Assembly: GCA_965247655.1 (NCBI GenBank)
Contig: OZ252032.1
Location: 5,339,843 to 5,403,842 of the forward strand
Reading direction: 5' to 3'
Origin: Candidatus Poribacteria bacterium
Lineage (GTDB): Bacteria > Poribacteria > WGA-4E > PCPOR2b
DNA length: 64,000 nt
Shown: piece by piece, positions 15,139-34,491 of the stretch
How positions within the stretch are numbered: the first letter of the stretch is position 1
How the letters are laid out: every line of letters starts with the position of its first letter
Notes under the pieces: generated by a model
Database searches by the model: none
What the model was told of the DNA's origin: nothing
What the model saw: the letters and a program-made list of their open reading frames with translations, nothing else
Made by a program: the position numbers and the translations under genes

Positions 15139-15543
15139 ATGCAAGATTACGACTATAGTCTTACATGGTATCACGGCTCTCAGCAAGAGCTGACCACACT
15201 TGGGGTCGGAAGTTCAATTACACAGAACAGAAATGTAGCAAAAGCGTTCTCTCACAGACCGTCCCTGCTCACCCTGTCTAAGGGCGGTACGGTGAAGCAC
15301 GATGGCGTGACACCCGGTTATCTCTATACCGTTGCCGATGAGATTGGTCCCAATGATGTGTATCCACATCCCCATCCGGCGAATGTCACTCGCTGGGAGT
15401 GGCTGACCAACCGAGAATTGAAACTGGAATTAATCGAACAGACTATCGTGACGGACAAGGAACGTCTGACAGACCAAGAAATTGCAGAGATAAAGCGGAA
15501 ACAGGAGGAAAGGGGCGAGCAGACTTTCACGGAGTGTGTTTGA
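15139..15543 (+). CDS. Hypothetical protein
   Basis: ORF with TGAGGT RBS; no family recognised. Confidence 0.45.
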   Translation: MQDYDYSLTWYHGSQQELTTLGVGSSITQNRNVAKAFSHRPSLLTLSKGGTVKHDGVTPGYLYTVADEIGPNDVYPHPHPANVTRWEWLTNRELKLELIEQTIVTDKERLTDQEIAEIKRKQEERGEQTFTECV

Positions 15544-15657
15544 TCTGAGTTGCTACCTATTCCAGAGAAACCAATTTTTGCAGATATTAAACAAGTCGGG
15601 TGTGTTTGCGCTCAAGCATAAATGCTTGGGATTCCATACCTAAAGGTTAATCATTGA

Positions 15658-16563: not shown

Positions 16564-17534
16564 TGAAAACACCGGTTGAGGTGCTATTCACGAGCAATAG
16601 CCCTCTATGGGATCGGATAGATAAAAATCTAACAGGAGTAGAGATGGAAATTGTCCAGTATACACCCAAGCTGCAAAGCGTTTTGACGGCATTCTATAAC
16701 CGTCAGACCGTCAATGTTCCACATTGCTACCCGGTCACGGAAGAGGAGTTCGCCCTTGCGATGTGCGGAGTTAATGGTAAACCGGATATACAGGAGACTG
16801 GACTCGATTTTGAGACAGCCTTCGTTGGGATAGAGAACCGTGCTGTACAGGCGTTTATTCACATAGGTATCGGTCAGGTTGGAGATAACAGGGGCGTTAT
16901 TCGGTTTTTGGGGTACGAGCGCGGTGCCCGGCGTGCCGGGCAAGCCGTGCTTGAAAAAGCGGAAGCCTATCTGGAAGCGTGTAACGTCGCCCACATTGAT
17001 GCCTTTTCACAAGACTCTCGATATCGTTTCTATCATTTTGAAAACGCTGGCTTATCGGACGGATTTGACCATGTTCAAGCACTCCTTGGATTCAACGGCT
17101 ATCAATGCTGTTCAGGGGAGGTTTTTTTAGATTGGGAGAACTATTCTGTCACACCAATACCTTCAAGTGCGCCGGTAACGTTTTCTATCGACTGGGAACA
17201 GGGGAGGGGGCAACGTCCCAATTGTACTGTACGTGCCTACCTAGATGGTGAAGAAGTTGGAGAATGTGAGTCTGTCTCCGGCGGCGAGTTTTCAAGCCAC
17301 CCCGATGCACAAGACTGGCTTCATACTATTGGGCTCGATATCGAAGACCCGTATCAAGGGCAAGGTATTGGGCGTTACCTGCTCCAACGCTCGCTTCAAG
17401 AGATGCGTAAAGTCGGGTATCGCCACGCAACGATTAGCACTGACTGGGAGAACTACCGTGCATTTCTGTTTTACAGCAACTGTGGCTATCGCGTCGTGGA
17501 TTGGACTTACGAATTAGAGAAACATTTCGATTAG
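16560..17534 (+). CDS. GNAT-family N-acetyltransferase (C-terminal GNAT, N-terminal uncharacterised domain)
   Basis: C-terminal QGQGIGRYLLQRSLQEMRKVGYRHATIST GNAT core. Confidence 0.6.
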   Translation: MMKTPVEVLFTSNSPLWDRIDKNLTGVEMEIVQYTPKLQSVLTAFYNRQTVNVPHCYPVTEEEFALAMCGVNGKPDIQETGLDFETAFVGIENRAVQAFIHIGIGQVGDNRGVIRFLGYERGARRAGQAVLEKAEAYLEACNVAHIDAFSQDSRYRFYHFENAGLSDGFDHVQALLGFNGYQCCSGEVFLDWENYSVTPIPSSAPVTFSIDWEQGRGQRPNCTVRAYLDGEEVGECESVSGGEFSSHPDAQDWLHTIGLDIEDPYQGQGIGRYLLQRSLQEMRKVGYRHATISTDWENYRAFLFYSNCGYRVVDWTYELEKHFD

Positions 17535-17648
17535 ACAGTCAGAGTAGAAACGCTAGTTGTAACAGGGATGTCCTCGCAAAGCCTGAAGTAATGTTCTTGA
17601 ACAAACTACTATAAGCAAGGCGGAATCCTAAAGGTGAAAGGTATTACC

Positions 17649-18533
17649 ATGGATGAAACAACTGAGATTGGAGCAGAGAACGTATACGATTTTCTTAAAC
17701 AGTTCGCTACAGATATCTCCCTAGCAGATCTGAAACCTGTATCCCATCGTCACCGGGGCGGTGATAGCCTGACCTTCTACTACCGTGACGACAGTATCCT
17801 CAAGGTTCCCCGCCTTAATGATTACCGCCCAGGACTCCTCAAAGAAATTAAACTCACAGAATACCTGCACACACAGTCACTACCCTTCGTTGTGGCAAAA
17901 CCGATCCTAGCGCATGAAGAGGGATTCTATGCGATGTTTTCAAGGATTGATGGTGCTTCGCTTCCGATAGAAGCACTTGAAGAACTTACCCCCGAAGAGT
18001 TGGAATCCTTTGGCAGATCTATCGGCACTTCCCTCTCTTTCTTGCACAATCACAAATTTCCGATCGAGGTCTTGGACTACATCCCACGCGCGGATGATCC
18101 CTTTGAAGTGGCACTTCGTGAGGCAAGGGGGCAGCTCGCTTTTATTGAGAAACACACTGTAGAAGTAGATACAACTCAATGGACTGAAAAGCTAGAAAGC
18201 CTGCGGGAATCCTTAAATCAGCGGTGGGCTGTGGTTCACTGCGATCTCCAAATAAACCACCTACTTTTTGTCCAAGGAAATCTGGAACAACTCGCCGTTA
18301 TCGATTTCGCGGATACGCTGATGCACGATCCCGCCGTAGATCTATCCGAGTTTGCCATAGAAATGTATTCAGATTTATCCCCTGACGGTATTGCAGCCAA
18401 AAAGATTATCAATGCGGTTCTAAAGCATTATCAAACAGACGATTCTGAGATTGAAGCGAAAATCGAGTTTGGACTTCTCCTTTTTGCAATTAGGTGCGCC
18501 TACCAAGAGGCAGTGAAACTTATCCGCTCATGA
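17649..18533 (+). CDS. Aminoglycoside/choline-kinase-type phosphotransferase (APH family)
   Basis: Catalytic loop VVHCDLQINHLLF and IDFADT motif; start at ATG 17649 behind AAAGGTGAAAGG (track start 17634 is GTG). Confidence 0.75.
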   Translation: MDETTEIGAENVYDFLKQFATDISLADLKPVSHRHRGGDSLTFYYRDDSILKVPRLNDYRPGLLKEIKLTEYLHTQSLPFVVAKPILAHEEGFYAMFSRIDGASLPIEALEELTPEELESFGRSIGTSLSFLHNHKFPIEVLDYIPRADDPFEVALREARGQLAFIEKHTVEVDTTQWTEKLESLRESLNQRWAVVHCDLQINHLLFVQGNLEQLAVIDFADTLMHDPAVDLSEFAIEMYSDLSPDGIAAKKIINAVLKHYQTDDSEIEAKIEFGLLLFAIRCAYQEAVKLIRS

Positions 18534-18675
18534 ACTTTCCCGTTGCCATTTCTCCGAAGATGGTATAATTAGACTTGGATGTTTTCAGGGTTATGGTCCT
18601 TTTGAGGTTGTCAAGTCACCATAGTCAATGAAGCTGCTATATTTATACTTTTCTCTGATACAGAAAGGAAATTCT

Positions 18676-19839
18676 ATGAAGATTAAAGAAATTCGCGTTG
18701 TAGAAATTGAGTTAAATCCGAAACCGACAACACCCCCACGGACACCGAGTCGGTCCGGAACGTATCAAATGAATCGACCCATTTCCCGTTACCCAACGTT
18801 CGACAAAAAAGAGGGAGATGTCTCCTTAGAATGGAAAAGGCCCGCATGTATTGTGACAGCGGAAGATGGCACTTGGGGATTTGGTATATCGCTTCATGGC
18901 GGTCCTGTGACCCGAATCATCACAGATTACTTTGCCCCGCGTCTCGTTGGCGAAAATTGCATGGCGACTGAGAAATTGTGGGACATGATGGTACGGTCAT
19001 CAGCCGCCTTTGGTACGACAGGTTTGACCAGTTACGCGATCAGCGCGATCGACTGTGCCCTGTGGGATCTCAAAGGCAAAATTCTGAAGAGACCTGTTTA
19101 TGAATTGCTGGGTGGACCACAGAAGGAGAAAATCTTCTGCTACGCTTCTGGCTTTGATCAGGAATGGTATATGGAGCTTGGATTCAAAGCGACAAAATTA
19201 TTCACACCTTACGGTCCGGAGCAGGGGAAAGAGGGCTTAATCAAGCTCGAAGAATTGGTGGCGAGCACGCGAGAAGTGATCGGCGATAAAGTTGAATTGA
19301 TGTTGGATGCTTGGACCGGTTTTGACGTTGAACATACCGTGCGCGTCTGCGAGATCATGAAACCTTACGGCTTGAAGTGGATGGAAGATTATATTCCCCC
19401 TGATGATTTTGTGGGGTACGAAACAGTCCGTCAACGCATTCCTTGGCAAACGCTCGCTACGGGAGAACACTGGTATCTACCAACTGTCTTTGCTGCTGCC
19501 GCGGGTCGGCGGTTAGTCGACATCTTCCAGCCAGACGTTTTGTGGTGTGGCGGTATCACTGCCGCAGCCAAAATCTGTCACATTGCTGAAGCGAACGGTA
19601 TCTCTGTGATTACGCACGGCGGAATGAATTATCCCTACGGTCAACATCTGTCATTTGCCATGCCTGCCATCACGTGGGGCGAGCGGTCCGAAGGTATTTC
19701 TCCTCCCGGTGTGCCGCTTGAAGAGATGGCCAAGTTGCCCGGTACTTCAGTCATCAAAGATGGTTACCTCGTACCATCGGAGGCCCCCGGTTTCGGTCTT
19801 GAAATTGATGAAGCTTGGATAGAGAGTGTCAGTAAATAG
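18676..19839 (+). CDS. Enolase-superfamily enzyme (mandelate racemase / sugar-acid dehydratase-like)
   Basis: AISAIDCALWDLKGK, LMLDAWTGFD, ATGEH motifs; start at ATG 18676 behind AAAGGAA. Confidence 0.8.
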   Translation: MKIKEIRVVEIELNPKPTTPPRTPSRSGTYQMNRPISRYPTFDKKEGDVSLEWKRPACIVTAEDGTWGFGISLHGGPVTRIITDYFAPRLVGENCMATEKLWDMMVRSSAAFGTTGLTSYAISAIDCALWDLKGKILKRPVYELLGGPQKEKIFCYASGFDQEWYMELGFKATKLFTPYGPEQGKEGLIKLEELVASTREVIGDKVELMLDAWTGFDVEHTVRVCEIMKPYGLKWMEDYIPPDDFVGYETVRQRIPWQTLATGEHWYLPTVFAAAAGRRLVDIFQPDVLWCGGITAAAKICHIAEANGISVITHGGMNYPYGQHLSFAMPAITWGERSEGISPPGVPLEEMAKLPGTSVIKDGYLVPSEAPGFGLEIDEAWIESVSK

Positions 19840-20080
19840 AATAACGCAAATTGCTAGGTATTCTAGTTGGTCAAGTTTCTTATTTCGCCCCGATACTTGG
19901 CAGGGCGGGTCTTCTAGACCGCTCTAACCTTTTCCATAATTTGTAGGTTGGGCTTCCTAGCCCAACCCTCAAAGTCTCAGCGGAGCGACAGGTAGCAACT
20001 TGCGTTAGAATATACAAAGAGGGGAAACATCCTCGGCTATGAATTAGAACAGGTAGATTCATAGAGGAGTATAATTTGAC

Positions 20081-21031
20081 ATGATGTATATTGATTTTGT
20101 CGAAGCCCTATCCGCGGACGATCTGGCGGCTATAAGGAAAGCCGCCAAAACTGACGTTCACTGTCATGCGTACTTTGGCACACGATTAGAGAATGTGGAA
20201 CACTGGTTGGGGCACTCACTGATGAAGGCACCTTCCAAAATGAGTGGACTCGATGCGATGATGGAGTACGCAGATGCGGTCCTAACCCCTCACATAAAAC
20301 ATCGCGAAGGTTTTGAGTTCGTCGCAGCGTCAGCGGTAAGCGATGCAATACAGGATGGCGTGGTTGTGTTTGAGATGAGCTTTGACATTCGGATGGCTGC
20401 CTACTATCCAGATGGCTTAGCTGGGGTTCGGACGTTTATTGAGGCGTTAGTTGACCGGTATCGGACGCAGATTAATCTACGGCCAGAACTTGGCTTTCCC
20501 CGGACGAGTGCCGACAATCCAAGCCTGATGAAGTTAGTGCACCAAGCGATAGAATTCGGTCTGTTTCAGTCAATTGATCTGTATGACCGTCAAGAGGCGT
20601 GCGCTCCTGAGGCTGTGAAGCCCTTGTATGCAAAGGCACAAGCTGCGGGAATGAAACTGAAAGCACATGTTGGAGAGTTTAGGGGTGCGGCGGAGATAAA
20701 GCGGACTGTCGAAGTCCTCGAATTGGACGAAGTCCAACACGGCATTGGCGCATCGGAATCGATTGAAGCCATGCGCTGGCTCTCCGAGAATCAGATTCAG
20801 TTGAATGTGTGCCCAACGAGCAACGTGATGTTGGATGCCGTGTCGGATCTCGCGTCTCATCCCATCCGCGTTTTGTTTGACAACGGTGTGCCGGTGACTA
20901 TTAATACAGATGATCCGATGATATTCGGTCAAAGCGTCTCAGACGAGTATCGAAATCTCTACCAAGCGGGTATCTTCACCGCTCAAGAGTTGGACGATAT
21001 TCGGTGTGCGTCACTTGAAGTGCTTGTTTGA
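20081..21031 (+). CDS. Adenosine/AMP deaminase-family metal-dependent hydrolase
   Basis: TDVHCHAY metal-binding start, HVGEF, and ADA signature-like TINTDDPMIFG. Confidence 0.7.
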   Translation: MMYIDFVEALSADDLAAIRKAAKTDVHCHAYFGTRLENVEHWLGHSLMKAPSKMSGLDAMMEYADAVLTPHIKHREGFEFVAASAVSDAIQDGVVVFEMSFDIRMAAYYPDGLAGVRTFIEALVDRYRTQINLRPELGFPRTSADNPSLMKLVHQAIEFGLFQSIDLYDRQEACAPEAVKPLYAKAQAAGMKLKAHVGEFRGAAEIKRTVEVLELDEVQHGIGASESIEAMRWLSENQIQLNVCPTSNVMLDAVSDLASHPIRVLFDNGVPVTINTDDPMIFGQSVSDEYRNLYQAGIFTAQELDDIRCASLEVLV

Positions 21032-21227
21032 TTTACTGTGACTTTTGATAGAAACCGAGACAACGTGTTTACGTTGTGGGCGACGAGGCACTTGGCTCCT
21101 TGGGCAACTTGAACTGGAATCTATATGGCGTTTTGTCCTGCTTGAAGAACAGGCAAAATTAGGATCACGGCAGTTGACACATAGTTGTCGCTGCGGCAGC
21201 TCTATTCTCATGACGTGGAGGAACACG

Positions 21228-22097
21228 GTGATTAATACCAAGTTAAAAGGCAAAGTCGCCCTGATCACAGGCACCAATCATGGCATTGGTGCTGCAACTG
21301 CTCTGGCTCTGGGCACCCAAGGCGTAAAGGTGTTTGCATCATTCTTTCGCCCACCGTGTCAATACAGCGAAACAGAATTGAAGAAAGCCGAGAAGACCGG
21401 ATTAGGTGGTGATGTTTTCTACCGAGCAATGCAACAAAAGTCTATTGAGCACCTCGTAAATCAGTTTGAAGAAAGGGGCATGAAGATATCTGTCTTAGAA
21501 GCCGACCTTGCTGATGCAACAAACATCTCGAAACTTTTCGATGCTTGTGAGAAGGAGCTAGGACCCGTTGATATCTTGATTAACAATCACACCTATTGCG
21601 TTCTGGAAACATTTGATCCTGAGCAAAGTTCAAAAGACGGGAGAGGCATTTTTCTACCCACCGCTTCAAGCATCGACGCACACTTTGTTATTAATTCCCG
21701 ATCGTATATATTGATGATGCAAGCGTATTTGAAGCGATACCTTAAAAACGGACTGAACTGGGGACGCATTGTAAACACCAGTACAGATGCCGCACATTGC
21801 CACCCGCTGAACATCAGCTATGCCGCAAGCAAACACGCAATCGAATCTTATAGCCGCTCTGCTGCATGTGAGATGGGAAAATACGGGATAACTGTCAACG
21901 TAATCGCTCCCGGACCGATTCAGACGGGCTACATCACACCTGAAGCTGAAAAAGGAATTGCAGAATCTACACCGTTAGGTAGGATTGGCAAACCTGAAGA
22001 TGTGGCGGAGGTTACTGTTTTCCTCTGTTCTGAGCAAGCCCGTTGGCTCACAGGGCAACTACTCTATGTTGGAGGCGGCTATCGAATGCCTCAATAG
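21228..22097 (+). CDS. SDR-family short-chain dehydrogenase/reductase
   Basis: TGTNHGIG cofactor motif, YAASK catalytic YxxxK; GTG start 6 nt after GGAGG (ATG 21210 is an alternative). Confidence 0.8.
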   Translation: MINTKLKGKVALITGTNHGIGAATALALGTQGVKVFASFFRPPCQYSETELKKAEKTGLGGDVFYRAMQQKSIEHLVNQFEERGMKISVLEADLADATNISKLFDACEKELGPVDILINNHTYCVLETFDPEQSSKDGRGIFLPTASSIDAHFVINSRSYILMMQAYLKRYLKNGLNWGRIVNTSTDAAHCHPLNISYAASKHAIESYSRSAACEMGKYGITVNVIAPGPIQTGYITPEAEKGIAESTPLGRIGKPEDVAEVTVFLCSEQARWLTGQLLYVGGGYRMPQ

Positions 22098-22160
22098 GTA
22101 GGCGTTCAGCGACTTGAAAATCTTAAGCGATATTTTGACACTTGAGAGGTTGAATCATCT

Positions 22161-22955
22161 ATGATTAAAATTCATGAAGCCAATCGTCGGCACTGGAATA
22201 ATCAGGCGGCAAGATGGGAGGAACGCTTGAATCGTGATGGACGTTGGCGCAAGTGCCATAAAGAGCCTGAATTGGCATTTGAGGGTGAGACACTTGCCAC
22301 AATCCGAGAGATGGTGGGTGATCTTCACAACAAGCAAGTGTGCGTAATTGGTAGCGGGGATAACATGGCAGCCTATGCACTTTCAGGATTAGGGGCAGCC
22401 GTGACTTCCACAGATATTTCGGAGGAACGATTGAAATTGGCAGCCGATCGTGCAAAAACCCTCGGCGTGTCAATTGATTTTGTTCATTCCGATGCCGCTG
22501 CTCTCGGATTTGCAGACGATTCGACCTTTGATCTTGTCTGCTCCACAAATGGCTTTTTCGTGTGGATTGCCGATCTTGGTGCGGTATTTCGTGAGGTTTC
22601 GAGAGTCCTGAAGCCAGGAGGCGCATACATTTTCTACGACATTCATCCATTCATGCGTCCATGGAAAGAGCAGGTAACGCCTATTGAAATGGCAAAGCCT
22701 TATTGGGACACCGGACCATTTCAAGAGTCCGCGGACGAATCGTACGAGTTTAACTGGACCTTAGCGGATTTGCTTAATCCACTAGTACAAGCAGGGTTGA
22801 CATTGAAAAAAGTTGTCGAAAGCTCAACACAAGATCCCGGATTTTGGCAGGGAAGCAGTGATGCGTCTGACATCGATGAATCATTACTTGATTGGAAAAG
22901 GAATCCCCGTGCTGGATTGCCGGTCTGGCTAACAGTCGCCTGCATCCAAAATTGA
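22161..22955 (+). CDS. Class I SAM-dependent methyltransferase (paralog of 27127..27923)
   Basis: Motif I VCVIGSGDNMAAYALSGLG and motif post-I TSTDISE. Confidence 0.8.
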   Translation: MIKIHEANRRHWNNQAARWEERLNRDGRWRKCHKEPELAFEGETLATIREMVGDLHNKQVCVIGSGDNMAAYALSGLGAAVTSTDISEERLKLAADRAKTLGVSIDFVHSDAAALGFADDSTFDLVCSTNGFFVWIADLGAVFREVSRVLKPGGAYIFYDIHPFMRPWKEQVTPIEMAKPYWDTGPFQESADESYEFNWTLADLLNPLVQAGLTLKKVVESSTQDPGFWQGSSDASDIDESLLDWKRNPRAGLPVWLTVACIQN

Positions 22956-23018
22956 TTAAGGTACGGTTAGCACACAATAGCAAATTACCCGGGTTACTTT
23001 GCGCAAGGAATCCACACA

Positions 23019-23540
23019 ATGATAGAAATACGGGAAGAGCAGCGAGGGGAGTATCAGGAAATCCGTCAGGTTATCGTCGCTGCATTCGGTGGTGACTCCG
23101 AAGAACCCGCAGCCAATGTCGTTGAATTGCTTAGAGACAGAAATAAGGCACCGGTTGCGCTCGTGGCAGTCAGTGACAATAAGATTGTTGGCCATATCAT
23201 GTTTTCGCCGGTTACGATAACACTCGCGCCCAAAGCGTTCTGTGCTGTTGGACTGGCACCCCTATCCGTCCTGCCAGAGTTTCAACGGCAGGGTATTGGC
23301 TCTATGTTGGCACGTGAAGGGTTAAAAAAATGTGCGGCGGCCGGATTTGAGGTCGTAGTCGTGTTGGGAAGTCGCTATTACTACCCACGATTCGGTTTCT
23401 CCCGTGCTAGCCTTTACGGCTTGGGCAATGAATATGACACTGACGAGCATTTCATGGCAATAGAACTGAAGAATGGCGTTCTTGATAAAGTCGGCGGCAC
23501 TGTGCAGTATTCACCAGAATTCAAAGAGTGTGGTTGCTGA
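23019..23540 (+). CDS. GNAT-family acetyltransferase (paralog of 27983..28504)
   Basis: QRQGIGSMLAREGLKKCAAAGFEVVVVLG acetyl-CoA binding core. Confidence 0.8.
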   Translation: MIEIREEQRGEYQEIRQVIVAAFGGDSEEPAANVVELLRDRNKAPVALVAVSDNKIVGHIMFSPVTITLAPKAFCAVGLAPLSVLPEFQRQGIGSMLAREGLKKCAAAGFEVVVVLGSRYYYPRFGFSRASLYGLGNEYDTDEHFMAIELKNGVLDKVGGTVQYSPEFKECGC

Positions 23541-23607
23541 GAAATCCATCTACAGGATAATCGGTCAATAAAACTGACAAACCAATCTGATGATTTCACA
23601 AACAAAG

Positions 23608-23636
23608 TTGACTTGCTCACCTAAATACAGTATATT
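23608..23636 (+). promoter_or_regulatory. Near-consensus sigma70-type promoter TTGACT-N17-TATATT
   Basis: Hexamers and 17-nt spacer read directly; about 210 nt upstream of the 23845 start. Confidence 0.45.
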
Positions 23637-23844
23637 GCCTCTGAAAACGACCCAAACAACTCAAGCGGTCGGGCTGGCGTTATCTCGTAGAGACTACATT
23701 GGTGCAGGTCTCAGCCGTTACTGATAATTGTTGTATCAGAACCCAGACCAGCAGTTGTCCTTAATAGCACTGAACAGTAGTAAACACTAAATGGTTCTCT
23801 CGCTCAGTTCGTATCGAGTAGCGTCGTTGTAAGTTTACCACATC

Positions 23845-24432
23845 GTGAGAATGAACAAGCCGTTTGTTATATCAGTCAATTCAGTATCGGGCGGTGGAAA
23901 GACGGCACTGTCAGCTCTGCTCCACAAGTCATTGCCGGATTCGTCTCTTTTCTGCTTCGACGATTTCGATGATTCAAATATTTATCCTGTTGATTTCTAC
24001 GATTGGAGCCAACGTGGCGGTGACATCGAAGAATTCGACTGTCCTGGAATGCAAGCGGCGGTCGCAGCTGAAGTTCACCGGGGAACAGCAAAGCAGATTA
24101 TTTTGGATTTCCCATTCGGTCGTCGCCACTCGCGCTTTTGTGATACCATTGATTTTGCTATTTTTGTTGACACTCCGCTTGATGTCGCCATGGCGCGACG
24201 AATTTTGAGAGACTATACAATCAACCACGATGAATCCCCAGAAGGAACTCTGAATCGCCTCCATAACGATATGTCGAACTATTTGGTAAGGGCACGCTAT
24301 CCATATTTGGATACTTACAAGGACAGGGACCATAGTGATCTCGTTTTGGATGGGTGGCGCAGTCTGGATGATTTGAAGAACGACGTGATAGCGGTGCTAA
24401 AATCGAGGAATCTGGTAACCCACGTCACTTAA
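23845..24432 (+). CDS. P-loop NTPase / small-molecule kinase-like protein
   Basis: Walker A SVSGGGKTAL at the N-terminus; uridine-kinase/chloramphenicol-phosphotransferase-like architecture. Confidence 0.5.
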   Translation: MRMNKPFVISVNSVSGGGKTALSALLHKSLPDSSLFCFDDFDDSNIYPVDFYDWSQRGGDIEEFDCPGMQAAVAAEVHRGTAKQIILDFPFGRRHSRFCDTIDFAIFVDTPLDVAMARRILRDYTINHDESPEGTLNRLHNDMSNYLVRARYPYLDTYKDRDHSDLVLDGWRSLDDLKNDVIAVLKSRNLVTHVT

Positions 24433-24546
24433 AAACACAGTTTGCGCTGCGCCCCTTGGCCTTCGGCAACTCCTCGACAAGCCTGGGGCTCACAAACCGG
24501 CAAAGCGTTTCCGGAAATGGGGATTAAATCTGTGAAAAACCTAGAG

Positions 24547-25338
24547 ATGAACTCTGAGAGCAGAAGCACTGCACTCTACGACTATCCAGATTACTACGAG
24601 CTGGCATTCTCATTTCGTGACATCTCTCACGAAGTAACGTGTTTCGAGCAGTTGTTCGAGAGGTTCGCTAAGGTGCCGGTGAGGCGAGTGCTGGAGTTAG
24701 CCTGTGGTCCGAGTCCGCACATTCGGGAATTGTGCCGACGGGGTTACGAGTATCACGGGCTAGATACGAATGAAAATATGCTCGCCGCCGGCCAAAGGAA
24801 GGTTACTGAAAGTACATGGACAGCAGAATTTCACAAAGCCTCTATGATAGATTTCAACGTGGACACAACATACCAGTTTGCTTTCGTCGCGCTCGGCTCG
24901 CTGTATGCACGGAACACAGAGGAACTGTCTATCCACTTCAGGTCGGTGGCAAGCGTCCTTGAACCTGGTGGGCTTTACATGCTGGACTGGTGCGTACAAT
25001 TCGGTCAATCCCTCACTTTTTCAGAGACAGGTCAGTCCTGGACAGTGGAGGAGGAAGGGATCGCAGTCGAAGTGAACGTCACATTGAGGGACGTTGATCC
25101 CATCGAGCAGATTGTCCAAGAAGTGGCCACTCTAAATGTGACAGACTACGGCCGATCCCTGACGATATCTAGTTCAGACCTACGAAGGGTGATGTATCCA
25201 CAGGAGTTTCTCTTGCTAACCGACGCTATGGAGGAGTTCAAGTTTCTGGGTTGGTGGAACGATTGGGACTTGAACCAGCCATTATCACAGGTAACAGGTG
25301 AGATTAATCGGCCAATCGTACTGCTTCGTCGGGTCTGA
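24547..25338 (+). CDS. Class I SAM-dependent methyltransferase
   Basis: Motif I VLELACGPSPH; start uncertain (24517 or 24547) because a repeat element overlaps the upstream region. Confidence 0.65.
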   Translation: MNSESRSTALYDYPDYYELAFSFRDISHEVTCFEQLFERFAKVPVRRVLELACGPSPHIRELCRRGYEYHGLDTNENMLAAGQRKVTESTWTAEFHKASMIDFNVDTTYQFAFVALGSLYARNTEELSIHFRSVASVLEPGGLYMLDWCVQFGQSLTFSETGQSWTVEEEGIAVEVNVTLRDVDPIEQIVQEVATLNVTDYGRSLTISSSDLRRVMYPQEFLLLTDAMEEFKFLGWWNDWDLNQPLSQVTGEINRPIVLLRRV

Positions 25339-25532
25339 GAGGTCTGAACTACTCAGTAGCTAGGAAACCGAACGTCCACATCCGGTAACACCCGGCTGCC
25401 ACTGCACCGTCCTGCAGCAGCTTGATCTTCGGCAACCCCTACACAAACCGCCTTTTCATAGGCACTGTTGTAGGGCCCAATGTCGAGTATAATAATGCTA
25501 GATAATCATTTGTAACATCTTGGGGTGGTATA

Positions 25533-26339
25533 TTGACTGATCACGACAATCTTGAGGAGTTTTCTGATCCAGCCAACTATGATTTGGAGGATGCTAGCGA
25601 TACAGGTATCGCTTTTTACACTGCCTTAGCACAGGAAACTGGCGATCCTGTACTCGAAATCGCCTGTGGTACGGGTCGTGTCAGCATCCCGATTGCACGA
25701 TTGGGTTTTTCTGTAACTGGTTTAGATATCGTACCGGGAATGATAGAGCGGGCGCGTAGCAAATCTGTTGGCTTACCTACACGCTGGATCGTGGGCGACG
25801 CCCGTACATTTGACCTCGGCGAACAATTTCGACTCATCTTCTTGACTGGCAATGCTTTTCAGGCTTTTTTAACAAACGCCGATCAAGAAGCACTGTTGCA
25901 ACGTGTGTATGCACATTTACACGACGAGGGATTGTTTGCCTTTGAAACGCGCAACCCGATTTTCCCCCACTCCCAGACTCCAGAGGGGCTATTTGTGCCC
26001 CTTGAAACGAATGTGGAAGAACAAGATTGGTCATCCTTTATTGATACAAGTGGGCACGAAGTGCGTGTGTCGAGAACTTACGTATATGACCATGTGGCTC
26101 AGATCCATCACTGGACGACCTACAAACGCTGGCACGAAGGTGGGGAGGAACACACCAAGATCACGCGTACTGCGTTGCGCTACATCTTCCCGCAGGAACT
26201 TGCAGCACTACTATACTACAATGGCTTCAGCATCGCACAGCAGTATGGTGATTGGAGTCTAGCACCGCTGACCGCTGATAACCCTAGCATCATCTCAGTC
26301 TGCCGCAAGCGCGGAGGATTTCAATCGCTTAATCAATGA
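25533..26339 (+). CDS. Class I SAM-dependent methyltransferase
   Basis: Motif I VLEIACGTGRVS, motif II GLDIVPGM; TTG start behind GGGGTGG. Confidence 0.7.
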   Translation: MTDHDNLEEFSDPANYDLEDASDTGIAFYTALAQETGDPVLEIACGTGRVSIPIARLGFSVTGLDIVPGMIERARSKSVGLPTRWIVGDARTFDLGEQFRLIFLTGNAFQAFLTNADQEALLQRVYAHLHDEGLFAFETRNPIFPHSQTPEGLFVPLETNVEEQDWSSFIDTSGHEVRVSRTYVYDHVAQIHHWTTYKRWHEGGEEHTKITRTALRYIFPQELAALLYYNGFSIAQQYGDWSLAPLTADNPSIISVCRKRGGFQSLNQ

Positions 26340-26408
26340 AACTGACAAATCCAAACGCACCAATCATAAACGGAACTGGTGCCTATACCAACGGATTGGA
26401 GGATCGAC

Positions 26409-26992
26409 ATGGATAAATACTTGCGTCCCACGGACGTGATGGATTATAACCACCCTGAAGTTCAAGATCTAGCGCGTACTTTAGGAAACGGGATCTCAGA
26501 GCAAACGATAATCTCAAAACGCTGCTTTGAGTGGGTACGAGATGAAATCAAGCATAGTGGGGACTTCAAGATGAATCCGACGACCTGCGCTGCGTCCGAG
26601 GTATTGCGTTATAAGACAGGATGGTTTTTGCCAAGAGTCATCTGCTGGCTGCGCTCTTAAGGGCAAACCATATACCCGCTGGATTGTGCTACCAACGGCT
26701 CACACGAAACGAGAAGACGGCCCCCCTCACACTACACGGTTTGAATGCAGTTCTGCTGCCTGAATTTGGGTGGTACAGAATTGATCCAAGAGGCAACAGA
26801 AACGGGGTAAACGCTCAATTCGATCCGCCCAACGAGAAATTAGCCTGGCCGATAGCCGTTGAGGGAGAAAGGAATCTCCGAGACGTGTGGGCAGATCCTC
26901 TGCCGACGGTGGTTGCTGTCTTGAGGAGCTACGACACTTGGGAAGGGATTCGTAATCACCTTCCAGACCTGCCCTTCCAGCAAGGAGACTGA
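26409..26992 (+). pseudogene. Transglutaminase-like cysteine protease superfamily gene, frameshifted at the catalytic Cys codon
   Basis: N-part ends ...SEVLRYKTGWF and continues in another frame as (V)FAKSHLLAALLRANHIPAG...H...D; two overlapping ORFs 26379..26660 and 26621..26992; break lies in a T5 run. Confidence 0.55.
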
Positions 26993-27126
26993 ACTTTCGT
27001 CTCTATATAACACCCAATCGCTGCTGCCGCGCTCACACACCTTTGGCTTTGGGCAAACCGCTTTGCGGGTTCAGCCACTTGAAAACCTTAAGCGATATTT
27101 TGATACTTGCGAGGTCGAATCGTCTA

Positions 27127-27923
27127 TGATTAAAATTCATGAAGCCAATCGTCGGCATTGGAATAGTCAAGCACCAACATGGGAGGAACGCTTGAACCGT
27201 GATGGTCGTTGGCGCAGATGTCATAAAGAGCCTGAATTGGCATTTGAGGGCGAAACACTTGCCACAATCCGAGAGATGGTAGGCGATCTTCGCAACAAAC
27301 AGGTGTGTGTAATTGGTAGTGGAGATAACATGGCAGCCTATGCACTTTCAGGATTAGGGGCAGTCGTGACTTCCACAGATATTTCGGAGGAACGATTGAA
27401 ATTGGCAGCAGATCGTGCAGAAATCCTCGGTGTGTCAATCGATTTTGTTCGTTCCGATGCCGCAGATCTCGGATTCGCAGACGATTCGACCTTTGATCTT
27501 GTCTGCTCCACAAATGGCTTTTTCGTGTGGATTGCCGATCCCGGTGCGGTATTTCGTGAGGTTTCAAGAATCCTGAAACCAGGAGGCGCATACGTTTTCT
27601 ACGACATCCATCCATTCATGCGCCCATGGAAAGAGCAGGTGACGCCCATTGAAATGGCGAAGCCTTATTGGGACACTGGACCGTTTCGAGAGTCAGCGGA
27701 CGGATCGTACGAGTTTAACTGGACCTTGGCCGATTTGCTTAATCCGCTGGCACAAACTGGATTGACATTGAAAAAAGTTGTCGAAAGTCCAGCGCAAGAT
27801 CCCGGATTTTGGCAGGGAAGCAGTGATATGTCTAGCACCGATGAATCTTTACTTGATTGGAAAAGGAATCCCCGCGCTGGATTGCCTGTTTGGCTAACAG
27901 TCGCTGCCTCCAGAATTGATTGA
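27127..27923 (+). CDS. Class I SAM-dependent methyltransferase (second copy, about 93 percent identical to 22161..22955)
   Basis: Same motifs as 22161; conserved 50-nt upstream leader. Confidence 0.8.
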
Positions 27924-27982
27924 GGTACGGTCAGAACACAGTGGCAAGTTACCCGGGTTACTTTGCGAAAGGAATCCACACA

Positions 27983-28504
27983 ATGATAGAGATACGGGAA
28001 GAACAGCAAGAGGAGTGTCAGGAAATCCATCAGGTTATCGTCGCTGCATTCGGTGGTGACCCCGAAGAACCCGTAGCCGACGTCGTTGAATTGCTTCGAG
28101 ATAGAAACAAGGCACCGGTTGCGCTTGTGGCAGTCAGGGACAACAAGATTGTCGGTCATATCATGTTTTCACCGGTTACGATAACACTCGCGCCCAAAGC
28201 GTTCCGTGCTGTTGGACTGGCACCCCTATCCGTCCTGCCAGAGTTCCAAAGGCAGGGCATTGGCTCTATGTTGGCACGCGAAGGGTTAAAAAAATGTGCG
28301 GCGGCAGGATTTGAGATAGCAGTCGTGTTGGGAAGTCGCTACTACTACCCACGATTCGGTTTCTCTCGTGCCAGTTTTTACGGCTTGGGCAATGAATATG
28401 ACACTGACGAGCATTTCATGGCAATAGAACTGAAGAATGGCGTTCTTGATAAAGTCAGCGGCACCGTGCAGTATTCGCCAGAATTCAAGGAGTGTGGTTG
28501 CTGA
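27983..28504 (+). CDS. GNAT-family acetyltransferase (second copy, about 93 percent identical to 23019..23540)
   Basis: Near-identical protein sequence to 23019 copy. Confidence 0.8.
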   Translation: MIEIREEQQEECQEIHQVIVAAFGGDPEEPVADVVELLRDRNKAPVALVAVRDNKIVGHIMFSPVTITLAPKAFRAVGLAPLSVLPEFQRQGIGSMLAREGLKKCAAAGFEIAVVLGSRYYYPRFGFSRASFYGLGNEYDTDEHFMAIELKNGVLDKVSGTVQYSPEFKECGC

Positions 28505-28559
28505 GAAATCCAGCCACAGGATAATCCGTGAAAACTTATACAAAACGGTAAGATTAGAA

Positions 28560-29627
28560 ATGACCTCGAGCACTAAAACCAACAATACACCCAACGATGG
28601 AACCGATTTCGTAAGTGGCATTGATTTAGCCCGGATGTTCTATGTTGAAATCGTTCGCCCACTCATAGAAGGGCGAGCCCACAGTGCAGCGAGGCTAGGG
28701 TCAGGGTCGGATGTTCTCGGTTTCGATACCCCTCGATCAACAGACCACGGCTGGGGACCACAATTACACCTTTTTGTGGCAGCCTCTGAGGTAGATGCCA
28801 TCCGCACGATTATCGATTCAAACCTACCGGAGGAGTTTCACGGGTGGCCCGTGCGCTTCGGCTGGGATGAGGTCGCCATTCAGCACCATGTGAGCGTTGT
28901 ATCTCTTGGGGAGTGGCTTGAATTGCATCTGGGATTCGATCCGCAAGTGGATATTACCGTCCAAAACTGGCTTACGACGCCACAACAACTACTGCTAGAA
29001 GTAACAGCAGGTGCGGTCTTTCATGATCCGGATGGAGATTTGAAACGGGTTCGCAGTAAACTGGAGTGGTTTCCAAACGATATTTGGCTATGGCTCTTGG
29101 CTTGTCAGTGGCGTCGAATTGCTCAAGAAGAGGCGTTCGTTGGTCGCACGGCTGAAATCGGCGATGAACTCGGTTCACGAATCCTGACAGCCCGAATTGT
29201 ACGCGATCTCATGAGGCTTTGCTTCCTTATAGAGCGGCAATATGCTCCATATAGCAAGTGGCTGGGCAGCGCATTCCGAAATCTCCGCATTGCCTTCAAA
29301 CTCACCCCGTATCTGGATGCAGCACTCAAGGCTACGGACTACCTTGCTAGAGAAACGGGGCTCTGTTCTGCCTACGAATATGTCGCACGTTGCTACAATC
29401 AACTGAACCTCACCCCTCCCGTTGATCCTGAAACCCGCTTGTTTTATAAACGTCCTTTTCGGGTGCTTGGAGGAGATCGATTTGCAGAGGCGTGCTTGGC
29501 AGCCATTCAAGATGAGTGGCTGAAAGGACAACCGCTTGTAGGGAGTGTCGATCAGTTTGTGGACAGTACGGATGTCTTGAGCAGCGCACACCGATCTCGG
29601 TGTCTTACCAATATCTATGACGACTGA
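28560..29627 (+). CDS. Nucleotidyltransferase-like / DUF4037-like protein (paralog 1 of 3)
   Basis: Degenerate pol-beta NTase motif LGSGSDVLGFDTPRSTDHGWGP; shared C-terminal region with 29727 and 32047 proteins (W..L..W... APY.KWL). Confidence 0.5.
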   Translation: MTSSTKTNNTPNDGTDFVSGIDLARMFYVEIVRPLIEGRAHSAARLGSGSDVLGFDTPRSTDHGWGPQLHLFVAASEVDAIRTIIDSNLPEEFHGWPVRFGWDEVAIQHHVSVVSLGEWLELHLGFDPQVDITVQNWLTTPQQLLLEVTAGAVFHDPDGDLKRVRSKLEWFPNDIWLWLLACQWRRIAQEEAFVGRTAEIGDELGSRILTARIVRDLMRLCFLIERQYAPYSKWLGSAFRNLRIAFKLTPYLDAALKATDYLARETGLCSAYEYVARCYNQLNLTPPVDPETRLFYKRPFRVLGGDRFAEACLAAIQDEWLKGQPLVGSVDQFVDSTDVLSSAHRSRCLTNIYDD

Positions 29628-29726
29628 ATTCTATTTGTCTAACAAGCTCGTCGCCCAATCGCTTCGTGGTTCGGGTACATTGGAAGTGTGGATTCAGGGT
29701 GTACAAACGGGCAAGCTAAGGAGACC

Positions 29727-30710
29727 GTGAAATTGACAACACCTATTAAGGCCCTTGAACTTTCACGCCGGTTGTTTGAGCAACGCGGACACCCCTTACT
29801 CCAGCAACTTGATCTGCTCGATGTATGTGCGGTGGGTTGTTTTGGAGGCACTTCACAGAACGCCAATCTTGATGACGATTGGTCTCGCGATCACATGTGG
29901 GGTCCGTACCTCACCTTCGTCTTGAAGGGCGAAGCCTACAATGAACATGAGTCCGCACTAGAAAAAGCTATCGCAAAGATGCCTGATGAAATTGATGGTG
30001 TGCACTGGATTGGCTACGATGGGCCCGAGCCACGCAGAACCGGTGTCCAAGAAGCGCATTCACTTCTGCGTTTGATAACAGGTCTTGAGGGTCCCGTAGA
30101 TAGCGAAGAGGATTGGATTTCGCTCATCGAGCGTAACGGTTTTCTGGGGTGTCGCTGGACCGAACAGCTTTTTGACGCAGGTCAAGGAGCAGTTTTTCAT
30201 GGGGCATGGTTTGAGGGGATGTGGCGGGACTGGACAAAATTCGTTCCGATAAACGTCAAGTTGGCGTTAATCAGTCGCTCCGTATTTCGAATCTGGAATG
30301 CGGGTCCGACCTATAATCTCAAGCGATTAATCGCTCGCAAGGATGCGATAGGAACGCTCCTCTGTACGAGTCGGTTCGTCGATGAGGTAATGGAGTTGGG
30401 GTTCACTCTGAGTGACCAGTTCACACCTTCCTTCAAGTGGCGATCTGCCCATTTCCAACGCCTCTCGGTCTTCTCAAAAGAAACCCAGACTGCGATTGCG
30501 AGATTAGTTGAAGTAAAAGACGTGGAAGAGATTCTATCCATTGCAAAATCTATCGAGTCTGAAATTAAAAGTGTATTGCGGTCTATGTTCTCTGTCAGAT
30601 GCGGACAGAGAACCGACTTGTCCATGTATGCACACGCAATCAAAAGAAAGATACGTCACAAGCGAGTGAAAGATATGACGAATCTAGATTGGTGGGTTCA
30701 TCTCGGATGA
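29727..30710 (+). CDS. Nucleotidyltransferase-like / DUF4037-like protein (paralog 2 of 3)
   Basis: GCFGGTSQNANLDDDWSRDHMWGP motif; start uncertain (GTG 29688, GTG 29727 or TTG 29733). Confidence 0.5.
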   Translation: MKLTTPIKALELSRRLFEQRGHPLLQQLDLLDVCAVGCFGGTSQNANLDDDWSRDHMWGPYLTFVLKGEAYNEHESALEKAIAKMPDEIDGVHWIGYDGPEPRRTGVQEAHSLLRLITGLEGPVDSEEDWISLIERNGFLGCRWTEQLFDAGQGAVFHGAWFEGMWRDWTKFVPINVKLALISRSVFRIWNAGPTYNLKRLIARKDAIGTLLCTSRFVDEVMELGFTLSDQFTPSFKWRSAHFQRLSVFSKETQTAIARLVEVKDVEEILSIAKSIESEIKSVLRSMFSVRCGQRTDLSMYAHAIKRKIRHKRVKDMTNLDWWVHLG

Positions 30711-30919
30711 ACAATAGGAGAATCTGAGAGGGTATAGGAGCAAGATAGAAGAAATAACCCGCGTCACTTAACAACACGGTTTGCGCTGCGGTGCTTAGCA
30801 CCTTGGCCTTCGGCAACCTAGTTGCACAGGTTTGCAAACCGGCAAACGTTAGCGGCCATGCATCCACACTTGAGCAATAGCCTTTGTTCAACAACCATTA
30901 CCAACATGAGATTCCCGCC

Positions 30920-31918: not shown

Positions 31919-32046
31919 GCCGCTGTGCACACCTGCTAATCTGTGCATCCACGGCTTCGCCAAGTTAGTTTTCAAAAAGGTTAGTCGTCTTTAGATCTGG
32001 AACTGGTATTAGGTGCCATCTAAGAAATGTCATCGTGGAGGACTCT

Positions 32047-34366: not shown

Positions 34367-34385
34367 GTAGGGCCTTATGCTAGTT

Positions 34386-34425: not shown

Positions 34426-34491
34426 AAAAAGTCCTCCAGTCTGTTACTATAGATGAACTTGACAATCCATCTAAAACTGGAGGATAACCTT

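What the first reader, a model, noticed from the sequence alone, without database searches (positions are those of the whole stretch)
24418..24512. Family of about 90-nt intergenic repeat elements in the accessory island
CGTCACTTAA(N)AACAC(N)GTTTGCGCTGCG ... CCTTGGCCTTCGGCAAC ... CAAACCGGCAAA(G)CGTT occurs at 24418-24512 and 30758-30860 at about 85 percent identity. In the first copy it overlaps the stop codon of the preceding gene. Shorter relatives sharing CTTCGGCAAC / ACAAACCG occur at 25405-25450, 33080-33110 and 35510-35560. All are intergenic and plus-oriented. The family could be REP/MITE-like elements, transcription attenuators, or small-RNA loci.
Basis: seen in the sequence. Interest (0 to 1): 0.5.

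Follow-up and report, generated by a model that had tools for sequence, protein, structure and literature searches.

The report
Integron attC sites, integrase-less cassette array
The repeats are attC sites, the recombination sites that end mobile integron gene cassettes. They lie in a variable gene array with no integrase in a Candidatus Poribacteria chromosome, and the same site family and some of the same genes occur in Latescibacterota integrons.

Summary
24418-24512 and 30758-30860 are 87% identical over aligned positions, and all three shorter relatives belong to the same family.

They are not REP/MITE elements, attenuators or sRNAs. They are integron attC sites. Covariance models built only from sites in another phylum (Latescibacterota) hit the window at:
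- 30765-30854 (84.5 bits, E 3e-22)
- 24426-24513 (E 8e-10)
- 27004-27093
- 33049-33126
- 33303-33394
- 35475-35564

All hits are on the + strand, downstream of + strand accessory genes. There were no hits in about 46 unrelated control loci.

In the Latescibacterota arrays, 30 of 42 consecutive sites show the integron cassette signature. The inverse core (R'') is complementary to the tail of the preceding site's core (R'), which implies crossover at G|TT. The rule also holds in a sister Poribacteria genome and partly in the window.

Gene content between conserved flanks differs among five Poribacteria genomes. The window holds no integrase or integrase remnant, so the array is a CALIN. One site is intact and the rest are decayed.

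Outside the window, the recombinase next to these arrays is closest to IntI but lacks the IntI-specific I2 domain.

The parts
15140..35564 (+). Cassette array with no integrase (CALIN). It holds about 20 co-oriented accessory genes: sulfotransferase, GNAT acetyltransferases, APH-type kinases, SAM methyltransferases, three DUF4037 genes, an SDR, an adenosine-deaminase-like gene and an enolase-superfamily gene. The left limit is uncertain. The clearly cassette-like part runs 20081-35564, and 13.3-19.8 kb is partly conserved in other genomes.
   Evidence: Pfam. Content differs among five Poribacteria genomes between the same flanks, a GFO_IDH_MocA gene on the left and AMP-binding plus Peptidase_S9 genes on the right. 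tblastn with two integrases finds nothing better than E 0.27.
30765..30854 (+). Intact attC site (subfamily A) ending the second DUF4037 cassette. R'' is ACTTAAC, L'' is CGGTTTGC, L' is GCAAACCG and R' is GTTAGCG.
   Evidence: R1 84.5 bits, E 3e-22. R2 73.6 bits. nhmmer E 6.5e-17.
24426..24513 (+). Decayed attC (subfamily A) ending the kinase-like cassette 23845-24432. R'' has changed from TTAAC to TTAAA, the first inner hairpin is deleted, and R' is GTTTCCG. The gene's stop codon lies inside R''.
   Evidence: R1 43.1 bits, E 7.8e-10. R2 35.1 bits. nhmmer E 2.5e-9.
25382..25473 (+). Decayed attC ending the methyltransferase cassette (ORF 24442-25338 as listed). R'' is CCGGTAAC at 25382 and R' is GTTGTAG at 25467.
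   Evidence: nhmmer 25384-25440, E 0.02, model positions 3-58. The variable triplet of R'' is complementary to the R' tail of the preceding site, GTTTCCG. Synteny with L001 breaks exactly at the GTT of R'.
27004..27093 (+). attC site after the NodS-like methyltransferase and NUDIX-fragment segment. R'' is ATATAAC and R' as aligned is CTTAAGC.
   Evidence: R2 34.2 bits, E 3.2e-5. nhmmer E 3.8e-8. Its orthologue is L001 5607-5696.
28523..28541 (+). 3' remnant of an attC (L', spacer, R'), AATCCGTGAAAACTTATAC, with the G of GTT lost. It lies upstream of the first DUF4037 gene.
   Evidence: It aligns with the 3' end of the full site in L001, AAACCGTGAAGACGTTAGGC. Assigned by inspection.
29637..29692 (+). 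Decayed attC (subfamily B) of the first DUF4037 cassette. R'' is GTCTAAC, there is an internal deletion, and R' has degenerated to GTGTGGA.
   Evidence: nhmmer with the subfamily B profile hits 29649-29680, E 0.0035. The covariance-model hit is not significant (E 1.4). The orthologous cassette in L073 (81% nt identity) has the same R'', GTCTAAC.
29704..29721 (+). Probable 3' remnant of a subfamily A attC, CAAACGGGCAAGCTAAGG. Tentative.
   Evidence: Resemblance to the consensus CAAACCGGCAAAC|GTTAnnn, by inspection only.
31919..31970 (+). Heavily deleted attC remnant after the APH gene. It begins GCCGCT and ends in R' GTTAGTT at 31964.
   Evidence: GCCGCT is the exact complement of the six bases AGCGGC that follow GTT in the preceding site's R', GTTAGCGGC. 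No model hit.
33049..33126 (+). Decayed attC (subfamily B) after the third DUF4037 gene. R'' has changed from TAAC to TAAA, and R' from GTTA to GCTA.
   Evidence: R3 31.5 bits, E 3.9e-6. nhmmer E 8.7e-9.
33303..33394 (+). attC-like site upstream of the 308-aa gene. The listed ORF start at 33269 is probably too early. R' is GTTACAA.
   Evidence: R2 28.9 bits, E 4.7e-4. Orthologues are L001 12321-12412 and L003 11294-11385.
35475..35564 (+). Decayed attC ending the array. R'' is CGCTAAG and R' is GCTAGGC. An IS separates it from its gene.
   Evidence: R1 27.5 bits, E 3.5e-5. nhmmer E 1.4e-6. Its orthologue L001 13434-13522 directly follows the gene.
15654..16548 (+). Sulfotransferase gene shared with a Latescibacterota integron cassette.
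   Evidence: 85-87% nucleotide identity to L069 4571-5365 and 2743-2852. There it lies between two attC sites whose boxes obey the cassette rule, GTTAGGC ... GCCTAAC.
28544..29644 (+). DUF4037 gene shared with a cassette of an integron that has a recombinase.
   Evidence: 81% nucleotide identity to L073 5643-6743, where it is flanked by attC hits at 6745-6835 and 5573-5651.
34370..35417 (+). IS element with a DDE transposase (34453-35400) and 17-bp terminal inverted repeats. It is inserted between the 308-aa gene and its attC.
   Evidence: Pfam. Inverted repeats and flanking AAGTAG. Absent at this position in L001.

Best explanation
The repeats are attC sites, the imperfect palindromes that end integron gene cassettes. 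Each has a conserved inverse core R'' (yyyTAAC), an unpaired spacer, an L''/L' stem, a variable branched middle and a core R' (GTTAnnn).

From established integron biology, one strand of an attC folds into a hairpin. A tyrosine recombinase binds the hairpin and exchanges strands at G|TT. This excises a cassette as a circle or inserts one into an array.

The window holds an array of such cassettes in a Candidatus Poribacteria chromosome with no integrase, which makes it a CALIN. One site (30765-30854) is intact and would probably still recombine if an integrase were supplied. The other sites carry mutations in R''/R' and internal deletions, so the array is mostly a decaying relic.

The sites belong to two subfamilies that fill large arrays in Latescibacterota genomes. 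At least two window genes occur there as cassettes. The cassettes therefore come from a pool shared across phyla.

Shown here: family membership, structure with covariation, the G|TT cassette signature, variable array content and absence of an integrase. Inferred: single-strand folding, the identity of the enzyme, and present inactivity.
For: 1. A pattern scan of 185,579 species genomes found about 20 clean copies in Latescibacterota MAGs and one in Poribacteria. The other matches look random.

2. Model R1, built from 18 Latescibacterota sites, hits window 30765-30854 (84.5 bits), 24426-24513 (43.1), 35475-35564 (27.5), 33303-33394 and 27004-27093. It also hits eight sites in sister loci. All hits are + strand and inside the arrays.

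3. R1 gives 61 hits in the Latescibacterota/Poribacteria loci and none in the roughly 46 unrelated control loci, about 350 kb.

4. In the 61-site alignment 91.7% of cells are paired, 21 of 26 pairs show compensatory change, and no shuffle of 500 reaches these values. The TAAC/GTTA core is nearly invariant.

5. Cassette rule: in 30 of 42 consecutive site pairs the R'' triplet is perfectly complementary to the preceding site's R' tail. The figure is 2 of 54 for a site's own tail, and random pairing gives a mean of 2.2 and a maximum of 8.
- The rule holds in L073 from the attI junction onward.
- It holds in Poribacteria L001: GTTATGA to TCATAAC, and GTTAACG to CGTTAAC.
- It holds in the window: GTTTCCG to CGGTAAC, and GTTAGCGGC to GCCGCT.

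6. Arrays in L041, L037, L071/L072 and L073 start next to a divergently oriented IntI-like recombinase.

7. Five Poribacteria genomes carry 3 to about 20 different genes between the same flanks. One junction falls exactly on an R' GTT.

8. The window's sulfotransferase and DUF4037 genes are 85% and 81% nucleotide-identical to cassettes in those arrays.
Against: - No integrase or remnant lies in the window or in four sister loci, so nothing shows these cassettes move today.
- Most window sites are degenerate. Several R' boxes read GCT or GTG instead of GTT, and only 2 of 8 consecutive window pairs obey the cassette rule perfectly.
- Many adjacent genes have no attC between them.
- Several synteny junctions are ordinary deletions. 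The 1.2-kb duplication 22104/27069 starts inside an attC, not at R'.
- Single-sequence folding energies do not differ from shuffled sequence.
- The L box is perfectly complementary, with no obvious extrahelical base, unlike textbook attC.
- The associated recombinase lacks the IntI-specific domain.
- The standard IntegronFinder attC model could not be run.
Confidence: 0.9

Rival explanations
1. The elements are recombination sites of an integron-like cassette system that differs from classical integrons. Its recombinase is IntI-related but lacks the I2 helix, so the sites would be recognised differently from textbook attC.
For: - In four independent array starts the adjacent recombinase lacks about 40 residues where IntI has its additional domain.
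- The L''/L' stem has no extra base.
- The spacers are asymmetric, 4 nt against 7 nt.
- Cury et al. 2016 treat recombinases without this domain as not IntI (PMC4889954).
Against: - IntI is still the best match for the recombinase, both in NCBIfam (TIGR02249, 239.6 bits) and in the PDB (VchIntIA, 164 bits against 133 for XerA-like).
- Layout, core sequences, G|TT crossover and the R''/R' complementarity that implies a folded substrate are all classical.
- A canonical IntI elsewhere in those genomes was not excluded.
Confidence: 0.3
2. The similarity is only a by-product of local duplication. Paralogous genes (three DUF4037 genes, several methyltransferases and GNATs) carried their 3' flanks along, and the repeats have no role of their own.
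For: - The array contains paralogues and a 1.2-kb duplication at 91% identity.
- Three of the copies follow DUF4037 genes.
Against: - Copies also follow unrelated genes: a kinase-like gene, a methyltransferase, a NUDIX fragment and a 308-aa gene.
- The same elements follow unrelated genes in another phylum.
- Covariation and the cassette rule show selection on the sites themselves.
Confidence: 0.03
3. REP or MITE-like dispersed repeats that spread by transposition.
Against: - With filters off, searches of 64 kb plus 84 kb of Poribacteria DNA find them only inside the array and only on the coding strand.
- The strict pattern occurs once in the 6.76-Mb Poribacteria representative genome, at this locus.
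- There are no terminal inverted repeats with target-site duplications.
- Spacing is one per gene or gene pair.
Confidence: 0.02
4. Transcription terminators, attenuators or small-RNA genes.
For: They are structured and lie downstream of genes.
Against: - No + strand terminator-like hairpin with a T tract coincides with any copy, and counts equal those of shuffled sequence.
- No Rfam family matches.
- The conserved parts are the TAAC/GTTA cores, whose pairing partner lies in the preceding element. An RNA element gives no reason for that.
Confidence: 0.02

Closest known systems
attC sites of sedentary chromosomal integrons (for example the Vibrio cholerae repeats), as modelled by IntegronFinder (Cury et al. 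2016, PMC4889954)
   Same: - R'' ...TAAC and R' GTTA... cores.
- An L''/L' stem conserved in structure rather than in sequence.
- A variable middle and a length of 75-143 nt.
- One site per cassette, downstream of co-oriented genes.
- High similarity among the sites of one array.
- Crossover at G|TT, shown by the complementarity between R'' and the preceding R' tail.
   Different: - No extra base is evident in the L box.
- Spacers are 4 nt and 7 nt.
- The middle folds as two or three short hairpins around a conserved CTTGGCCTTCGGCAAC motif.
- The hosts are Poribacteria and Latescibacterota. No paper in the searched library reports integrons in either.
- The neighbouring recombinase lacks the I2 domain.
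CALIN, a cluster of attC sites lacking an integron integrase (Cury et al. 2016)
   Same: The window has at least six model-supported attC sites on one strand, spaced 0.2-3 kb apart. No integrase or pseudogene lies within 15 kb upstream or 28 kb downstream. IS elements sit in and beside the array.
   Different: This array occupies the same chromosomal locus in five genomes with different content. Most of its sites are decayed, and many genes have lost their site altogether.
Taxon- or habitat-specific attC families used to trace cassette origin (Ghaly et al. 2021, PMC8352920)
   Same: A covariance model from one taxon's arrays recognises cassettes that now sit in another taxon, which points to their source pool.
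   Different: Latescibacterota and Poribacteria are not among the 11 taxa modelled in that paper. Transfer here is between two candidate phyla, at 81-85% nucleotide identity for the genes.
REP/BIME and MITE repeats
   Same: Short, palindromic, intergenic and repeated.
   Different: The window elements lie on one strand only and are confined to one array. They lack transposon ends, and their conserved cores pair across neighbouring elements.

Membership tests
integron attC site | Inverse core R'' (RYYYAAC) at the 5' end and core R' (GTTRRRY) at the 3' end | tested here: met
   30765-30854 has ACTTAAC ... GTTAGCG. TAAC/GTTA is present in 56-60 of 61 family members. Other window copies carry point mutations: TAAA, TAAG, GCTA, GTTT.
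integron attC site | Internal imperfect inverted repeat (L''/L') kept by structure rather than by sequence, with a variable terminal structure | tested here: met
   All six L-stem pairs show compensatory changes. Overall 91.7% of cells are paired and no shuffle of 500 reaches this. Lengths run from 75 to 143 nt. Caveat: the alignment was fitted to the model.
integron attC site | Strand exchange at G|TT of R', so that a cassette's first bases are complementary to its own R'' | tested here: met
   30 of 42 consecutive pairs are perfect, against 2 of 54 for a site's own tail and a random mean of 2.2. L073 is perfect or 6/7 from the attI junction through five cassettes. L001 is 2 of 2. In the window 2 of 8 are perfect, and one of these extends to 6 nt.
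integron attC site | Extrahelical bases in the folded stem | tested here: not met
   L'' CGGTTTGCG and L' CGCAAACCG are exact complements with no extra base. The asymmetry lies in the spacers instead, 4 nt against 7 nt. This rests on sequence inspection only, not on structure determination.
integron attC site | Position at the 3' end of cassettes in a co-oriented array | tested here: met
   All window and locus hits are on the coding strand downstream of genes. Whether the cassettes lack promoters was not tested.
integron attC site | Detection by the reference attC covariance model of IntegronFinder | not testable with these tools
   The model is not in Rfam and the paper's supplementary files are not held. 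The three model builds allowed were used on the family itself.
integron attC site | Recombination by an integron integrase | not testable with these tools
   Only association is shown. An IntI-like gene lies divergent from the arrays in L041, L037, L071/L072 and L073.
CALIN | At least two attC sites clustered on one strand, with no integron integrase nearby | tested here: met
   Six model-supported sites lie between 24.4 and 35.6 kb. tblastn with IntI1 and with the Latescibacterota recombinase finds nothing better than E 0.27 in 64 kb. No Phage_integrase hit appears among the 30 ORFs scanned.
complete integron | intI gene, attI site and promoter next to the first cassette | tested here: not met
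   None is present in the window. An IntI-like gene and an attI junction (G|TTATACG) are present in L073.
integron integrase IntI (for the recombinase next to related arrays) | Tyrosine recombinase fold plus the IntI-specific additional domain (I2 helix) | tested here: not met
   TIGR02249 scores 239.6 bits, below the 265 cut-off, and profile positions 178-234 are unmatched. About 40 residues are missing relative to IntI1 and VchIntIA 178-236.
REP/BIME or MITE | Dispersed copies in both orientations; for MITEs, terminal inverted repeats and target-site duplications | tested here: not met
   Copies lie on one strand and in one locus in all DNA examined. The strict pattern matches once in a 6.76-Mb Poribacteria genome. 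The whole genome of the window's own organism was not available.
intrinsic terminator or Rfam RNA family | GC-rich hairpin with a T tract, or a match to a curated RNA model | tested here: not met

The most novel reading that the evidence does not exclude
The attC family in this window may belong to an undescribed integron lineage shared by Latescibacterota and Poribacteria. Its integrase is the closest relative of IntI but lacks the I2 helix, which is held to be the innovation that lets integrases recognise folded single-stranded attC sites through their extrahelical bases. Its attC sites correspondingly have no extrahelical base in the L box. Even so, its cassettes show the classical G|TT crossover and the R''/R' complementarity that implies a folded substrate.
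Probability: 0.45. Interest if true: 0.8.

Novelty: new member of a known kind. Interest (0 to 1): 0.55.

Why it matters
The finding explains a hypervariable 'accessory island' in Candidatus Poribacteria as an integron cassette array. It also shows that cassettes, with their recombination sites, are shared between two candidate phyla at 81-85% nucleotide identity. I found no paper in the searched library that reports integrons in either phylum.

For annotation, it sets cassette boundaries and corrects several ORF starts that run into attC sites.

The wider point is the recombinase beside the intact arrays. It is IntI-like but lacks the I2 domain. If it is the working enzyme, the accepted view that this domain is required for attC recombination needs revision, and tools that define integrons by that domain would miss this lineage.

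Tried and rejected
- Looking up the window's own contig by exact protein failed twice. The organism was inferred from homologue names and from a sister genome about 90% identical.
- Single-sequence DNA folding of ten candidates on either strand gave z-scores between -0.9 and +0.6, which is uninformative.
- Rfam gave nothing at the repeats.
- I first read the shared GTT at 22104/27069 as an R' crossover. The model alignment shows it is the internal GGTTC motif of the attC, so that duplication edge lies inside a site and is not a clean cassette boundary.
- I planned a reference attC model from classical resistance cassettes and verified the aadA1 attC sequence in R100. I dropped the plan because the IntegronFinder alignment is not held and the cassette-rule test proved more decisive.
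This is not proof of absence.
- One protein (P0129) could not be located.
- A possible attC remnant at about 15585-15651, upstream of the sulfotransferase gene, got no model or HMM support and is left as tentative.

Full report
**1. The observation**

The repeat finder links 24416-24460 with 30755-30799 at 84% and 24446-24470 with 30793-30817 at 88%. A global alignment gives 87% identity over aligned positions. It has two indels: a short hairpin missing from the first copy and a longer inner hairpin in it. The stop codon of ORF 23845-24432 lies inside the first copy.

**2. Surroundings**

From about 15 kb to 35.6 kb every substantial ORF is on the + strand. The genes encode small accessory enzymes: a sulfotransferase, GNAT acetyltransferases, APH-type kinases, SAM methyltransferases, three DUF4037 proteins, an SDR and others.

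A homologue search placed the window in Candidatus Poribacteria. The same locus was recovered from four related genomes, L001-L004. All share the flanks, a GFO_IDH_MocA gene on the left and AMP-binding plus Peptidase_S9 genes on the right. Between the flanks they carry from 3 to about 20 different + strand genes.

The copies read like integron attC sites. The second copy reads cacTTAAC-aaca-CGGTTTGC ... GCAAACCG-gcaaac-GTTAGCG. This is an inverse core, a spacer, an inner inverted repeat, a spacer and a core. L001 has still cleaner examples ending AAAC|GTTAnnn.

**3. Relatives elsewhere**

One scan of 185,579 species genomes used a pattern taken from the long copies. It returned 66 stretches. 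About 20 matches lie in complete Candidatus Latescibacterota genomes, up to seven per genome. One lies in the Poribacteria genome of L001. The rest have no flanking TAAC or GTTA and look like chance.

The Latescibacterota copies form a tight family: yyyTAAC-nnca-CGGTTTKCGCTGCG-hairpin-CTTGGCCTTCGGCAAC-hairpin-GTTCGCAAACCG-nnnnAAC-GTTAnnn.

**4. An independent model test**

Model R1 was built only from 18 Latescibacterota sites. Its hits, all on the + strand and inside the arrays, were:

| Source | Position | Bits | E-value |
|---|---|---|---|
| window | 30765-30854 | 84.5 | 3e-22 |
| window | 24426-24513 | 43.1 | 7.8e-10 |
| window | 35475-35564 | 27.5 | 3.5e-5 |
| window | 33303-33394 | 20.8 | 0.0036 |
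| window | 27004-27093 | 17.7 | 0.032 |
| sister loci | eight sites | 19.8-59.1 | 1.3e-14 to 0.0071 |

Run over the 66 genome loci, R1 gave 61 hits. All are in Latescibacterota or Poribacteria DNA, spaced 0.4-2.8 kb apart (mostly under 1.7 kb) on one strand. None lies in the roughly 46 unrelated loci, which serve as about 350 kb of negative control.

- **Covariation:** in the 61-site alignment 91.7% of cells pair and 21 of 26 pairs show compensatory change. No shuffle of 500 reaches these values, and slid controls fall to 19-44% paired. The TAAC/GTTA core is almost invariant. The alignment was fitted to the model, so these counts lean towards it.
- **Broader model R2 (61 sites):** run with filters off on both strands of the whole window, it found five sites below E 1e-3, all + strand between 24.4 and 35.6 kb.
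- **Model R3, for a second shorter subfamily:** it hit 33049-33126 at 31.5 bits, E 3.9e-6. It also hit three consecutive L001 sites.
- **Sequence-only profiles:** these added 25384-25440 (E 0.02) and 29649-29680 (E 0.0035).

**5. The cassette signature**

In an integron, strand exchange occurs between the G and the TT of R'. The bases after that G therefore belong to the next cassette and must pair with that cassette's own R''.

- **Latescibacterota arrays:** the three variable bases of R'' are perfectly complementary to the three bases after GTTA of the preceding site in 30 of 42 consecutive pairs (28 of 35 pairs closer than 1.7 kb). The figure is 2 of 54 for a site's own tail. Random pairing gives a mean of 2.2 and a maximum of 8.
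- **L073:** the rule holds from the attI junction (..CAAGCAG|TTATACG.., complementary to R'' CGTATAAC of the first site) through five cassettes.
- **Poribacteria L001:** it holds for GTTATGA then TCATAAC, and for GTTAACG then CGTTAAC.
- **The window:**
  - R' of the first copy (GTTTCCG) matches R'' of the next site (CGGTAAC) in 6 of 7 positions.
  - The bases after R' of the intact copy (GTT-AGCGGC) are exactly complementary to the GCCGCT that follows the stop of the next gene, where the AAC has been lost.
  - The other window pairs match 0-2 of 3.
- **Synteny:** one break between the window and L001 falls exactly on the GTT of R' at 25467. Other breaks are ordinary deletions, and the 1.2-kb duplication at 22104/27069 starts inside a site.

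**6. Recombinase**

The window and the four sister loci contain no integrase or remnant. The best tblastn E-value is 0.27. By the definition of Cury et al. (PMC4889954) the window array is a CALIN.

In Latescibacterota-type arrays a tyrosine recombinase lies divergent from the first cassette. This is seen in L041, L037 (with an in-frame stop), L071/L072 and L073. It is 36% identical to IntI1. Its best matches are the integron-integrase model TIGR02249 and the VchIntIA structure 2a3v.

About 40 residues are missing exactly where IntI has its specific additional domain. That domain, the I2 helix, is described as the element that docks the extrahelical bases of attC (PMC7790495). The sites here show no extra base in the L box.

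Close homologues of the recombinase were not seen on contigs with the sizes of the five Poribacteria genomes. This does not exclude their presence.

**7. Shared cargo**

The window's sulfotransferase gene is 85-87% nucleotide-identical to a cassette in Latescibacterota locus L069. Its first DUF4037 gene is 81% identical to a cassette in L073 and has the same R'', GTCTAAC.

**8. Rivals**

- **Terminators:** terminator-like sites are at chance level and none coincides with a copy.
- **Known RNAs:** Rfam finds only a tRNA at 10452-10524.
- **REP/MITE:** this does not fit the single strand, the single locus, the one-per-gene spacing or the pairing between neighbouring elements.
- **Co-duplicated flanks:** this cannot explain copies behind unrelated genes in two phyla.

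**9. Verdict**

The finding is a real family, and it consists of integron attC sites in an integrase-less, partly decayed cassette array. That is a known kind of element in a host group where I found no published report (the library is incomplete). The I2-less recombinase next to the intact arrays lies outside the window. It is unproven as the enzyme, but it is the part most worth following.

Noticed in passing
L041 2213-3118(-), L037 5303-6121(+), L071 7234-8163, L072 6326-7255, L073 10001-10888: The tyrosine recombinase at the start of each Latescibacterota-type attC array is most similar to integron integrases. It lacks the roughly 40-residue IntI-specific I2/additional domain. The L037 copy has an in-frame stop.
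   Followed up: partly
L073 about 9755-9765 (reverse strand): Probable attI junction ..CAAGCAG|TTATACG.., about 245 nt from the recombinase start. It is exactly complementary to R'' (CGTATAAC) of the first attC.
   Followed up: partly
window 15654-16548 and L069 4571-5365 / 2743-2852: A sulfotransferase gene is 85-87% nucleotide-identical between a Poribacteria chromosome and a Latescibacterota integron cassette. In L069 the cassette is interrupted by an insertion of about 1.7 kb.
   Followed up: partly
window 34370-35417: IS element with a DDE transposase and 17-bp terminal inverted repeats (GGGCCTTATGCTAGTTA), flanked by AAGTAG on both sides. It is inserted between a gene and its attC and is absent in L001.
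   Followed up: partly
window 13735-14526 (-), within about 13400-15040: An IS4/IS5-family transposase (DUF4096 plus DDE_Tnp_1) splits a + strand alpha/beta-hydrolase gene that is intact in L003 and L004. The same IS family sits in the L073 array.
   Followed up: no
window 10452-10524 (-): A tRNA gene (Rfam 64.7 bits) lies between the conserved left flank and the ABC-transporter genes, close to the variable region.
   Followed up: no
window 22104-23310 and 27069-28274: A 1.2-kb direct duplication (91% identity) carries a UbiE-type methyltransferase and a GNAT gene. Its left edge lies inside an attC, at the GGTTC motif.
   Followed up: partly
L002 3324-3757: An insertion of about 440 bp between the SDR gene and the methyltransferase is flanked by CTCAATAG on both sides. 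This looks like a small mobile element with a target duplication.
   Followed up: no
L071 3033-4358 (-), L072 2124-3449 (-): A group II intron reverse transcriptase (RVT_1 plus GIIM) lies inside the cassette array next to an attC hit. From general knowledge, one class of group II introns targets attC sites.
   Followed up: no
window 375-4900 and 38795-39513: Repeat families D3-D6 (GGCAATnnnnnnCCCATCnGGnGACCA) appear to be PD40/WD40-like beta-propeller repeats. The second cluster lies in the Peptidase_S9 gene, which has PD40 hits. The first cluster's ORFs were not scanned. They are not related to the attC family.
   Followed up: no
window 33269-34366, 24442-25338, 29688-30710: The mechanical ORF starts run upstream into attC sites. 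The true starts are probably later: about 33440 by comparison with the 308-aa orthologue in L001, about 24519-24540, and about 29730.
   Followed up: no
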